Assembly (NCBI GenBank): GCA_000165345.1
Contig: CM000432.1
Span: forward strand, 512,001-576,000
Direction of reading: 5' to 3'
Length of the DNA: 64,000 nucleotides
Positions within the stretch are counted from its first letter, which is position 1. The number at the start of each line of letters is the position of its first letter. The position numbers are program-made. Below, in pieces: positions 58,001 through 61,000 of the stretch.

Positions 58001-61000
58001 AAACCAGGGGATCTAAAAATATACTCAAGTTCATCTACAAATGCCACCAAGATTATTAATATAAATGAAAAAGTTCACCCAAATGTAATCAGTGATTGCG
58101 ATATTTTTTTAAAAAGTGATAATTTACGCGATTACTCGAATAAATATTTGCAACTAAATAATTTGGAAGAAAAAATAACGCTTTTAATTCCAAGGATAAA
58201 ATGCTTAATGAAAGAAAGCAGAGCTATTGATTCAAATCTAACGATTCTTAAACCTTGTTACTTGTTACTTTGGAATTATAATATTAGAAATTGTAATAAT
58301 ACTATAAAAGATATCAATTGGATAAATATTCAATGTAAATTTGTCAGATTGAAATTCTTTGGACAAGCGTATGAAAATTCGATTCCTATAAATCTTAATC
58401 CTCATAAAGAGATCATTCTTGACCAATTAAATCGTATTCGAAATGTTGATGAGGCAAGAGTTTTTGCATGGATGCTCGCGGGTTGCATGCAGCATACAAT
58501 TAACGAACTATTGATTGATTCATGTACTAAATCATTATTTTTCAGCAATAGTTATATTAGAATAACTGATGAGATAAATTACTTTAGCAATTGCATCAAA
58601 AGTGGCCCATTTAGTGGTTTTCCCGACTCTCCATTAGATTGTCACGGGAGAATTAAATGGAAAATATTGGAAGAATTAGTCGAAGATTAGAATTTATTAA
58701 TTATTTTTAACTAGGTATCAAGTAAATCTAGTTCTAGAACGAAAAGGTTACATTTTTTATAGATCAAATTTCTTTATATAAATGCTCGTAAATTCTGTTT
58801 TTACGTTTTTTATTCCATGAATTTATTAAAATTATTGACGAAATTAATAGTATAATGATTGCAATACCAACGAAAATAAAAATATGAAGCCTACTACTTT
58901 TATGTTCATGTACTATCTCCTCCAACTTAGTAATTATCACGCAAGTAGGAGCTTCGGGAATATAAAATGCATCTTCATCACTTAAATTACATGTTAGTGT
59001 AGAAAATCCGACCAACTCAAAATTATCATAGCATTCATATGTCACAGTATCCCCTACACGAATATTATTTCCTATTACTGTATCGCTCAATTTGTAACTT
59101 GAATTAACGACGCTGGGAGGGTTCGGGCAAACAGTTGCGAATCCAAACGTCTTCAAATATTTTGATATTTTTGAATTTCCTTTTTTTTCAGCAAGAATAA
59201 TTCCTTTATTGATATCTAAAGTTTTGCTAGGAATGCTGTGTAAATTTGGCCTCGTAGCAAAAAGAATTTTTTGAAGTATAAGCAAATAACCACCTCTAAT
59301 CGTATTGTAATATGATTCATTCAACTTTTCATTATATTCTCCCTGTGAGATTTCAGAATCAATTTTAGATTGAATTGCAGAAAATGACATAGGAGGTACT
59401 TCAGATGGATCAACCGCTCTATAACCAACAGGGAATGCAGAAAGTTCCAAGGGAGATAGACCATGATAATTTCCTTTCAGAAGATCATCTTTATTTCTAA
59501 CTAAAAGCGGTATTATATCTCCAGAGTTGTACATCGCAGCAATATGAAGAGGAGTATTCCCATCATAATCAACTGAATATTCTATTATGCTTTGATTTAA
59601 GCTTTTGTCGTAGAAAGAAATTAAAAGGTCGACTATTGGAATATTGTTTCTTGATGCAGCGACATGGAGTGGAGTAAATTTTGAAAAGTCTTTCGCATTG
59701 ATTTTTGCACCTGCACCTAGAAGTATTGAGGCCATTCTTTTTGGATGTAGATTTCTGGACAAACCAACAGTATGTAAAGGAGTTCTTCTATATTTATCTT
59801 TTTCATTAGGGTCTGCACCAAATTTTAGAAGCAATTTAGATATTTCAATCGATTCTAGATCTTGAATGAGAGAAACGTAATGAAGAGCTGTCATTCCTTC
59901 TAAATCTCCAATAAAACCACCAATTGAACCTAAAATTGGTAAGTCACTTTCTTCATTTTTTTTTAATTTTATATTTGCATCAATTCCAGTAAGCAATAGT
60001 AATGCAACAATATTCAATCTTCCAGAAATAACTGCAGAGTGTAACAAAGATTCACCAATGTTAAATAGTGAAATTCCGGTATCTTTATTCACTCTACATT
60101 CCTCTAAGTTTATTTTATTTCCTTTTATACGTCGCCCCTCAAAAAAAATAATTAATTTTCTATTCAATTTAAAATTTTTTCTATTTGAATGATCTAAGCC
60201 TTCCTCTTTAATATACTCCAATAAATAATCATTCGCTTCAGATAGTTCTTCGTATTTCTCAAGGACTCCTAAATGATAAAGTAATCTTACTAGTTCTCCA
60301 GCATTTTTATCCAAATAAATTGATTCGAATAAAGACTTACAGTCGTAACTAAGAGTCTCTTGTCGAAAACCTCCATCAGATATAAATTCAGAACTTTGGA
60401 AATTATTTATTGTTCCACCTAGATTTTCTTGATTAGTTAAGAAATGAAGTGTTGAATTTGAAGTCAAAACAGTATTGCAGAGTAAAAAACATATTAATAA
60501 AGCAACTAATAGATTAACTTTGTAACAAGTTACAATTTTTTTGAATTTATAATTCGGAATCATTTTTGTGAAATTTGCATGGTATTATTAAGTGTGATAA
60601 TTCTACACACATCTTTTAGACAATTATGATTTAGAACATTTTATTCCCATAATTTAAAAAAAAAGACAGGCAAAAATTTATTCTTTATAAATGAGATACT
60701 AGTTTATTAAAATATTTATCATTAATTAGATTTGTTGATTTGGAATTATTTAAATATTCACTGCACGCAAATGTAGAAAAAATCATCTCAACTTATTAAA
60801 AAAAAAAATTGCATATAAAATCTATTTTAACGATAATCTGAGATAAAAAATTTAATTTATTTGAGCTTATTATTTGAATAATAATGTTTGAAAATTCTTA
60901 ATCTAAGCATATTTGAACGTAAATACCTTCTTTAAATTATTTCGTAAAAAAAAAAAAAATACAATATTATTTAAACAAATAAATTGTTATCAAAGTTAGA

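What the first reader, a model, noticed from the sequence alone, without database searches (positions are those of the whole stretch)
58764..60563. Ankyrin repeats predicted on the extracellular/luminal side, fused to a Sushi (CCP) domain
Ankyrin repeats are overwhelmingly cytosolic, whereas disulfide-bonded Sushi domains are extracellular. Here both lie between an N-terminal signal or anchor and a single C-terminal TM helix. They should therefore share one topological compartment. That is an unusual, possibly lineage-specific surface receptor or adhesin architecture.
Basis: partly seen in the sequence, partly recalled or inferred. Interest (0 to 1): 0.55.

Follow-up and report, generated by a model that had tools for sequence, protein, structure and literature searches.

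The report
Cryptosporidium rhoptry neck protein RON9

Summary
Window 58764-60563 (-) is one intact 599-aa ORF. It has an N-terminal signal-type segment, an ankyrin solenoid, one Sushi/CCP domain, a strong transmembrane (TM) helix and a short basic tail.

It is not new. The protein is 100% identical to C. parvum EAK87856.1. Its GenBank name already reads [quoted passage not shown].

It aligns colinearly with Toxoplasma RON9 from the ANK region through the Sushi domain (32% identity over 400 aa, E 2e-47). Lamarque et al. 2012 named cgd4_2420 as CpRON9 and described this signal peptide-ANK-Sushi-TM layout. A 2026 paper lists cgd4_2420 as a hyperLOPIT rhoptry candidate whose location has not been validated.

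Six cysteines are invariant from Cryptosporidium to coccidia, the tail carries a net positive charge, and TgRON9 is disulfide-linked and ER-retained without RON10.

"Surface receptor or adhesin" is not supported; this is a rhoptry protein.

One minor new point: Cryptosporidium has a true TM helix plus a YxxL tail, whereas coccidian RON9 ends in a weak, tail-less hydrophobic stretch.

Verdict: already known, low interest.

The parts
58764..60563 (-). Complete single-exon CDS (599 aa plus stop) of C. parvum RON9 (cgd4_2420; EAK87856.1)
   Evidence: ORF list. Exact-sequence match to C. parvum EAK87856.1/QOY42199.1. Found on 1.1-Mb chromosomes of NCBI assemblies with the same neighbours.
60459..60563 (-). 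aa 1-35: basic n-region (K6, K8, K9, K15), a 12-residue uncharged core (aa 18-29), then polar TSNST. Read as a signal peptide; cleavage is not proven.
   Evidence: Hydropathy and charge. All 9 orthologues have an uncharged core of only 9-15 residues near the N-terminus. Source names say 'signal peptide'.
60069..60362 (-). aa 68-165: conserved N-terminal cap region (motif C-K-x-L-F-E-S-I-Y ... E-C-R-V-N-K) holding invariant C75 and C156, a possible disulfide pair
   Evidence: Alignments A1 and A3. C75 and C156 are invariant in Cryptosporidium and in Cystoisospora, Eimeria and Cyclospora. The region is mostly helical in the AF2 model, pLDDT 40-78. The disulfide itself is inferred.
59424..60068 (-). 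aa 166-380: six recognisable ankyrin repeats (LLHSA, ALHYV, TPLHTV, TPLHVA, TPLHIA, SPLELS)
   Evidence: Pfam Ank families. PDB sequence hits to ankyrin-1/2 and DARPins, E down to 4.6e-51. AF2 pLDDT 85-93 for aa 221-310. Foldseek hits to ANK solenoids. This is the most conserved module, 51-97% identity across the genus.
59139..59423 (-). aa 381-475: two degenerate ankyrin repeats that run the solenoid up to the Sushi domain
   Evidence: In A3 these columns align with clear ANK repeats of coccidian RON9 (GNTPLMDAVLGGYFEVVKRLL; MTALDLARKS). The model shows helix pairs 409-424/427-436 and 451-461/464-472. Lamarque et al. note one ANK 'not conserved in CpRON9'.
58941..59129 (-). aa 479-541: single Sushi/CCP domain with four invariant Cys (479, 511, 525, 541). 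The canonical Trp is absent (AFYIP in its place).
   Evidence: Pfam Sushi above threshold. The profile hits many multi-CCP proteins. AF2 model pLDDT 81, all-beta. Foldseek TM 0.70-0.75 to Crry, CR2, DAF and CR1 CCPs.
58818..58886 (-). aa 560-582: transmembrane helix
   Evidence: KD 19-residue mean up to 3.24. Present in all 9 Cryptosporidium orthologues, KD 3.15-3.73.
58767..58817 (-). aa 583-599: short basic tail, WNKKRKNRIYEHLYKEI, containing YEHL (YxxPhi-type motif). Predicted cytosolic.
   Evidence: Net charge of the 20 aa after the TM window (580-599, INS + this tail) +4. A YxxL motif is present in 7 of 9 Cryptosporidium species, including distant C. andersoni and C. bovis. The sorting role is inferred.

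Best explanation
This is the C. parvum orthologue of Toxoplasma rhoptry neck protein RON9 (CpRON9, cgd4_2420). It is a type I membrane protein.

- Entry and orientation: a signal-type N-terminus takes it into the ER. The whole ectodomain then lies in the lumen of the secretory pathway and of the rhoptry. That ectodomain is a Cys-containing cap, about 8 ankyrin repeats and one CCP module packed directly after them. The short basic tail with YxxL faces the parasite cytosol and may serve vesicular sorting.
- Likely role (inferred): by analogy with TgRON9, the ANK-CCP ectodomain is a luminal protein-binding scaffold. It would pair, partly through disulfides, with a RON10-like partner (cgd8_2530, also a Sushi protein) during transport to the rhoptry.
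- After discharge (inferred): when the single rhoptry discharges, a membrane-anchored ectodomain would be exposed at the apical parasite-host interface.

Shown here: identity, domain folds, conservation, homology to RON9.
Shown in the literature: TgRON9 neck localisation, the disulfide-linked RON9/RON10 complex, the hyperLOPIT rhoptry assignment of cgd4_2420.
Inferred: signal-peptide cleavage, the C75-C156 disulfide, the sorting motif, the partner in Cryptosporidium, the fate after discharge.
For: Identity:
- Exact identity to C. parvum EAK87856.1.
- Orthologues with the same order of domains in 8 other Cryptosporidium lineages; C. felis names its copy 'rhoptry neck protein RON9'.
- Conserved synteny with C. 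meleagridis.

Homology to RON9:
- BLASTP against TgRON9 (partial record P0272): 32% identity over 400 aa, aa 156-546, E 2e-47.
- BLASTP against Cystoisospora 'rhoptry neck protein': 30%, E 4e-41.
- A profile of the non-ANK C-terminus, scanned against 1.84 billion representatives, gave single continuous matches only to Cryptosporidium, Cystoisospora, Eimeria and Cyclospora proteins.
- Six invariant Cys across these clades.

Folds and topology:
- ANK and CCP folds confirmed.
- Topology features.

Literature:
- CpRON9 = cgd4_2420, with 5 ANK + Sushi + signal peptide + TM.
- TgRON9 shifts mobility on reduction and is ER-retained without RON10.
- cgd4_2420 and cgd8_2530 are predicted rhoptry proteins.
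Against: - No experimental localisation of cgd4_2420 by tagging exists in the papers I could read. says it is not validated.
- Signal-peptide cleavage was not predicted with a dedicated tool.
- TgRON9/RON10 knock-outs had no phenotype in tachyzoites, and the proteins were not seen secreted. The function is therefore unknown even in the model organism.
- One 2026 genome comparison finds RON10 annotated in only two Cryptosporidium species, so the partner may be divergent or differently annotated.
- The link EAK87856.1 = locus tag cgd4_2420 rests on three things: the matching description, the 1.1-Mb chromosome, and its being the only ANK+Sushi protein per genome. I did not do a direct locus-tag look-up.
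Confidence: 0.85

Rival explanations
1. Surface receptor or adhesin: the protein sits in the sporozoite or merozoite plasma membrane and uses the CCP and ANK modules to bind host ligands from outside.
For: Type I topology with a CCP domain, which is typical of adhesion and complement-regulator proteins. The GenBank product name says 'extracellular membrane associated'. After rhoptry exocytosis, a rhoptry-membrane protein could transiently reach the apical surface (inference).
Against: The orthologue TgRON9 localises to the rhoptry neck and was not detected on invading parasites. cgd4_2420 fractionates with rhoptry proteins in hyperLOPIT, as cited. The 'extracellular' label is an automatic description based on domains, not data.
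Confidence: 0.08
2. Injected effector: the ANK solenoid is delivered through rhoptry discharge into the host enterocyte. There it acts in the host cytosol like bacterial Ank effectors, so the ANK repeats work in a cytosol after all.
For: Rhoptry contents are injected into host cells, and several C. parvum ROPs are injected. Lamarque et al. raise host mimicry by ANK repeats and a link to intestinal epithelium, because RON9 occurs only in Coccidia and Cryptosporidium.
Against: A strong TM helix with a basic tail is conserved in all Cryptosporidium orthologues. The six conserved cysteines and the CCP fold suit an oxidising compartment, not a cytosol. TgRON9 was not detected in e-vacuoles, whereas ROP1 was.
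Confidence: 0.06
3. Cytosolic, tail-anchored protein: the N-terminal hydrophobic stretch is not a signal, so ANK and Sushi both face the parasite cytosol (for example the cytosolic face of the rhoptry) and only the last ~17 residues are luminal.
For: ANK repeats are usually cytosolic. No dedicated signal-peptide predictor could be run. The C. parvum n-region is rather long, at 15 aa.
Against: All nine orthologues keep an N-terminal hydrophobic core despite only 6-74% sequence identity there. The tail after the TM helix is +1 to +5, so the positive-inside rule places it in the cytosol. The four CCP cysteines plus two more are invariant. TgRON9 forms disulfide-linked complexes and accumulates in the ER without its partner.
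Confidence: 0.01

Closest known systems
Toxoplasma gondii RON9 (rhoptry neck protein 9; Lamarque et al. 2012, PMC3299665) and its coccidian orthologues (Neospora, Cystoisospora, Eimeria, Cyclospora)
   Same: Signal peptide, Cys-containing cap, ankyrin solenoid, one Sushi/CCP lacking the canonical Trp, and a C-terminal hydrophobic anchor, all in the same order. Colinear 30-32% identity from C156 to the end of the Sushi domain. Six invariant cysteines. The paper itself names cgd4_2420 as CpRON9.
   Different: CpRON9 is 599 aa, against 1277 aa for TgRON9. It lacks the long acidic/PEST-repeat N-terminal extension. Its cap region between the two N-terminal cysteines is about 40 residues longer. Repeats 7-8 have decayed so that Pfam no longer calls them. 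Cryptosporidium has a strong TM helix (KD 3.2) followed by a 17-20 aa basic tail with YxxL, whereas coccidian proteins end 0-11 residues after a weaker hydrophobic stretch (KD 1.4-2.05).
TgRON1 / Plasmodium apical sushi protein (ASP), and CpRON10 (cgd8_2530)
   Same: Apicomplexan rhoptry-neck or predicted rhoptry proteins that carry a Sushi domain in the organelle lumen.
   Different: These proteins have no ankyrin repeats. They were not compared by sequence here.
Metazoan complement-control (CCP/SCR) modules: CR2, Crry, DAF, CR1
   Same: Fold of aa 479-541: TM 0.70-0.75, rmsd about 2 A, 22-31% identity, four-Cys pattern.
   Different: A single module rather than a tandem array. Trp is missing. 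It is fused directly to an ANK solenoid. There is no evidence of complement binding.
Secreted ankyrin-repeat proteins outside the cytosol, e.g. latrotoxins, and bacterial Ank effectors
   Same: ANK repeats that leave the producing cell's cytosol. Latrotoxin ANK regions appear among the PDB sequence hits. Lamarque et al. draw the bacterial-effector analogy.
   Different: There is no homology beyond the generic ANK repeat. RON9 is membrane-anchored and stored in an organelle.

Membership tests
RON9 (apicomplexan rhoptry neck protein 9) | Colinear sequence homology to TgRON9 extending beyond generic ANK repeats, through the degenerate repeats and the Sushi domain | tested here: met
   BLASTP aa 156-546 against P0272 'RON9, partial [T. 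gondii FOU]': 32% identity, E 2e-47. A non-ANK C-terminal profile gives single-stretch hits only to coccidian and Cryptosporidium proteins.
RON9 (apicomplexan rhoptry neck protein 9) | Architecture: signal peptide, ANK repeats, one Sushi domain, C-terminal hydrophobic anchor | tested here: met
   This matches the description in Lamarque et al.. The anchor type differs (TM helix plus tail against a tail-less stretch).
RON9 (apicomplexan rhoptry neck protein 9) | Conserved cysteine framework (2 in the cap + 4 in the Sushi domain) | tested here: met
   C75, C156, C479, C511, C525 and C541 are invariant in the 8-sequence Cryptosporidium-coccidia alignment A3.
RON9 (apicomplexan rhoptry neck protein 9) | N-terminal acidic/PEST repeat region | tested here: not met
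   Absent from the 599-aa protein. Lamarque et al. report that the repeats occur only in Tg and Nc, so this is not a family-wide requirement.
RON9 (apicomplexan rhoptry neck protein 9) | Localisation to the rhoptry neck | not testable with these tools
   Literature only. TgRON9 is shown in the neck. cgd4_2420 is a hyperLOPIT rhoptry candidate that is 'not validated'.
RON9 (apicomplexan rhoptry neck protein 9) | Stable, disulfide-dependent complex with RON10, needed for ER exit | not testable with these tools
   Shown for Toxoplasma. A C. parvum RON10 candidate, cgd8_2530, exists and is predicted to be a rhoptry protein, but it lies outside this window.
Ankyrin repeat (Pfam clan Ank) | Tandem 33-residue helix-turn-helix repeats forming a solenoid | tested here: met
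   Pfam Ank 92.5 bits against a cut-off of 21.1. Paired helices in the AF2 model. Foldseek gives probability 1.00 to AnkB, AnkR and DARPins over 300-380 columns.
Sushi / CCP / SCR domain (PF00084) | About 60-residue beta-sandwich with four Cys (C1-C3, C2-C4) | tested here: met
   Pfam 28.9 bits against a cut-off of 20.7, full-length profile match. Model pLDDT 81. TM 0.70-0.75 to CR2, Crry and DAF. The disulfide connectivity itself was not measured.
Sushi / CCP / SCR domain (PF00084) | Near-invariant Trp between Cys3 and Cys4 | tested here: not met
   The sequence between C525 and C541 is NLSDEDAFYIPEAPT, with no Trp, in all Cryptosporidium and coccidian orthologues. TgRON9 shows the same exception. 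The fold is still predicted, so this is a variant CCP.

The most novel reading that the evidence does not exclude
The most novel reading not excluded is that Cryptosporidium re-anchored RON9. It would have exchanged the weak, tail-less (possibly GPI-type) C-terminus of coccidian RON9 for a true TM helix with a cytosolic YxxL tail. After the single rhoptry discharges and its membrane is remodelled into the host-parasite interface, the ANK-CCP ectodomain would then stay fixed there as a host-facing scaffold of the attachment or feeder-organelle zone. That would be a rare case of an ankyrin solenoid working on the extracytosolic side.
Probability: 0.12. Interest if true: 0.5.

Novelty: already known. 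Interest (0 to 1): 0.15.

Why it matters
However, the oddity has been on record since the C. parvum genome annotation and the 2012 RON9/RON10 paper.

What remains open is biological, not architectural. RON9/RON10 has no known function. It occurs only in parasites that start infection in gut epithelium. CpRON9 has not yet been localised or deleted in Cryptosporidium. The sequence analysis here adds only small details: eight repeats rather than five, a conserved extra Cys pair, and a different membrane anchor with a YxxL tail.

Tried and rejected
- A word-indexed search with the C-terminal alignment A2 returned nothing, not even the Cryptosporidium orthologues. I treated this as a tool limitation. 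The full HMMER scan with the same alignment worked.
- Weak Pfam hits were rejected as chance or compositional (TM helix plus basic tail). These were SWIB/MDM2 (aa 104-152, E 0.0097, below cut-off), Stevor (aa 450-597, E 0.016), TMEM51 and Sigma_reg_N.
- The third hydropathy peak, aa 173-196, was rejected as a TM helix. It is the inner helix pair of ANK repeat 1.
- The afdb50 fold library was unavailable.
- The primary C. parvum hyperLOPIT paper (Guerin 2023) and the ROP1 paper (PMC8475647) are not held. The rhoptry assignment is therefore cited second-hand.
- The full-length AF2 model is only moderate (pLDDT 64).
- Genomic context gave no functional clue. The neighbours are housekeeping genes and two uncharacterised ORFs.

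Full report
**What is at the coordinates.** Window 58764..60563 (minus strand) is one uninterrupted ATG-to-stop ORF of 599 aa. The window has about 30% G+C and is packed with long intron-less ORFs.

Pfam finds ankyrin repeats and a Sushi domain:
- Ank: E 6.4e-27, 92.5 bits against a gathering score of 21.1. Ank_2 to Ank_5 are also above threshold.
- Sushi: one domain at aa 479-541, E 1.5e-6, 28.9 bits against 20.7, covering the full 56-position profile.

Hydropathy gives two terminal hydrophobic segments:
- aa ~16-34, with an uncharged core at 18-29, preceded by four lysines.
- aa 560-582, with a 19-residue Kyte-Doolittle mean up to 3.24, followed by NSWNKKRKNRIYEHLYKEI. The 20 residues after the best 19-residue TM window carry net charge +4.

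**Folds.** An AF2 model of the whole protein, built from a 9-sequence alignment, is moderate overall (pLDDT 64). It is confident for aa 221-310 (85-93) and shows helix pairs continuously from aa 173 to 472. Foldseek against the PDB returns only ankyrin solenoids (AnkB, AnkR, DARPins, FEM1C), with probability 1.00 over 300-380 aligned columns. PDB sequence hits agree.

A separate model of aa 473-549 reaches pLDDT 81 and is all-beta. Its best PDB matches are CCP modules of Crry, CR2, DAF, CR1, CD46 and factor H, at TM 0.70-0.75 (normalised to the query) and rmsd about 2 A. The refutation condition 'the four-Cys module does not fold as a CCP domain' is not met.

The canonical CCP tryptophan is missing (AFYIP), as Lamarque et al. 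also noted for TgRON9.

**Identity.**
- The protein is exactly identical to C. parvum EAK87856.1, QOY42199.1 and two further accessions. The source name reads 'extracellular membrane associated protein with a signal peptide, 5 ankyrin repeats, SUSHI ...'.
- It lies on 1.1-Mb chromosomes in NCBI assemblies.
- Orthologues with the same layout occur in C. meleagridis (92%), C. ubiquitum (78%), C. canis (72%), C. felis (60%, named 'rhoptry neck protein RON9'), C. bovis, C. ryanae and C. andersoni (42%).
- Gene order around it is conserved in C. meleagridis.

**Link to Toxoplasma RON9.** I built a profile from the non-ANK C-terminal part only (degenerate repeats + Sushi + TM; alignment A2) and scanned it against 1.84 billion representative proteins.
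- Besides many multi-CCP proteins, it gave single continuous matches to a Cystoisospora suis 'rhoptry neck protein', an Eimeria stiedai protein and a Cyclospora protein.
- The Cystoisospora protein is 64% identical to 'rhoptry neck protein RON9 [Toxoplasma gondii]'.
- The window protein aligns directly and colinearly with TgRON9 from C156 through the Sushi domain: 32% identity over 400 aa, E 2e-47. Against Cystoisospora it gives 30%, E 4e-41.

Lamarque et al. 2012 (PMC3299665) already state three things:
- RON9 has orthologues only in Cryptosporidium (cgd4_2420), Neospora and Eimeria.
- All share a signal peptide, ankyrin repeats, one Sushi domain and a C-terminal TM segment.
- CpRON9 has five rather than six called repeats.

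[quoted passage not shown] The RON10 candidate cgd8_2530 is also 'predicted as rhoptry protein'.

I did not look up the locus tag of EAK87856.1 directly. The equation with cgd4_2420 rests on the matching description, the chromosome size, and its being the only ANK+Sushi protein per Cryptosporidium genome.

**Topology.** No SignalP or DeepTMHMM was available, so the argument is indirect but consistent:
1. All nine Cryptosporidium orthologues keep an N-terminal hydrophobic core of only 9-15 uncharged residues. That is signal-peptide length, too short for a membrane span. It persists even though sequence identity there falls to 6-26%.
2. The residues after the TM helix carry net charge +1 to +5 in every species, so the positive-inside rule places them in the cytosol.
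3. Six cysteines are invariant from Cryptosporidium to Cystoisospora, Eimeria and Cyclospora. Four are the CCP cysteines. The other two, C75 and C156, flank the cap that precedes the first repeat.
4. In Toxoplasma, RON9 migrates far higher without reduction, forms an SDS-resistant complex with RON10, and is retained in the ER when RON10 is absent. This places it in the oxidising lumen.

**Extra anatomy.** The alignment with coccidian proteins shows that aa 381-475 of CpRON9 correspond to two clear ANK repeats in coccidia. The solenoid thus has about eight repeats and abuts the CCP domain directly.

Conservation across the genus is highest in ANK 1-6 (51-97%) and the Sushi domain (53-94%). It is lowest in the signal peptide, the 36-67 linker and the juxtamembrane stalk.

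The tail holds a YxxL motif in 7 of 9 species, including C. bovis (YKQL) and C. andersoni (YHSL). A role in adaptor-dependent sorting is an inference.

Coccidian RON9 proteins instead end 0-11 residues after a weaker hydrophobic stretch (KD 1.4-2.05), preceded by small residues (GAASS, GSA). This looks like a tail-less or GPI-type anchor, but it was not tested with a predictor.

**Mechanism.** The best-supported reading is a type I rhoptry (neck) membrane protein. Its ANK-CCP ectodomain would act as a luminal protein-binding scaffold that pairs with a RON10-like partner during transport. It could be exposed at the apical interface once the rhoptry discharges.

The function is unknown even in Toxoplasma. 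Knock-outs had no effect in fibroblasts or mice, and the proteins were not seen at the moving junction or in e-vacuoles. The authors suggested a role specific to gut epithelium.

Rivals and their weights:
- Plasma-membrane adhesin: 0.08.
- Injected host-cytosolic ANK effector: 0.06.
- Cytosolic tail-anchored protein: 0.01.

**Context.** The neighbours are ordinary chromosome-4 genes: Vps35, ribosomal L31e, a Mon1-like protein, a class II aminoacyl-tRNA synthetase, ubiquilin, ubiquitin E1, a PLAA/Doa1-like protein, Dpy19, an aspartyl protease, SMC, adaptin, CDT1 and a TBC RabGAP. Two uncharacterised ORFs flank RON9. Context gives no functional clue.

**Verdict.** The 'surface receptor or adhesin' reading is not supported. 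The feature is already known as CpRON9. Interest is low (0.15). The residual interest lies in the untested biology of RON9/RON10 and in the anchor difference noted here.

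Noticed in passing
window 58767-58886 (-), compared with P0272, P0173, P0179 and P0190: Cryptosporidium RON9 has a strong TM helix (KD 3.24) plus a 17-20 aa basic tail with YxxL. Coccidian RON9 proteins end 0-11 residues after a weaker hydrophobic stretch (KD 1.4-2.05) preceded by small residues, which looks like a GPI signal or a tail-less anchor.
   Followed up: partly
window 60069-60362 (-): Two cysteines outside the Sushi domain, C75 and C156, are invariant from Cryptosporidium to coccidia. They flank a cap region that is about 40 residues longer in Cryptosporidium. They may form a disulfide stapling the N-terminal cap of the ANK solenoid. The distance in the model could not be read.
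   Followed up: partly
window 61055-63568 (-): An 837-aa ORF immediately upstream of RON9 has a signal-like N-terminus (MLRFFKYLLFVHIFLNSINA), two long internal hydrophobic segments, Asn-rich low-complexity stretches and no Pfam match. It is conserved and syntenic in C. meleagridis (89.7% identity).
   Followed up: no
window 56759-58690 (+): A 643-aa Cys-rich ORF converges on RON9, with a gap of only 73 bp between the two stop codons. It has no Pfam match and is conserved in C. meleagridis (91.3%).
   Followed up: no
window 9347-12745 (-) and 13136-14788 (-): A Dpy19-family protein (E 9e-159; by general knowledge, the family of C-mannosyltransferases acting on TSP repeats) sits next to a 550-aa pepsin-like aspartyl protease (Pfam TAXi_N and Asp). 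Both could bear on maturation of secretory-organelle proteins.
   Followed up: no
window 22863-24518 (+), 24583-28548 (-), 7008-9338 (+), 1645-2844 (+), 43778-44830 (+): Several large ORFs (350-1321 aa) have no Pfam domain at E <= 1e-3 or 1e-4. They are probably Cryptosporidium- or apicomplexan-specific proteins.
   Followed up: no
tool behaviour: The word-indexed homology search with alignment A2 returned no hit at all, not even the sequences in the alignment. The exhaustive HMMER scan with the same alignment found them at E 1e-97 to 1e-109. A negative result from the word-indexed tool with an alignment query should not be trusted.
   Followed up: yes
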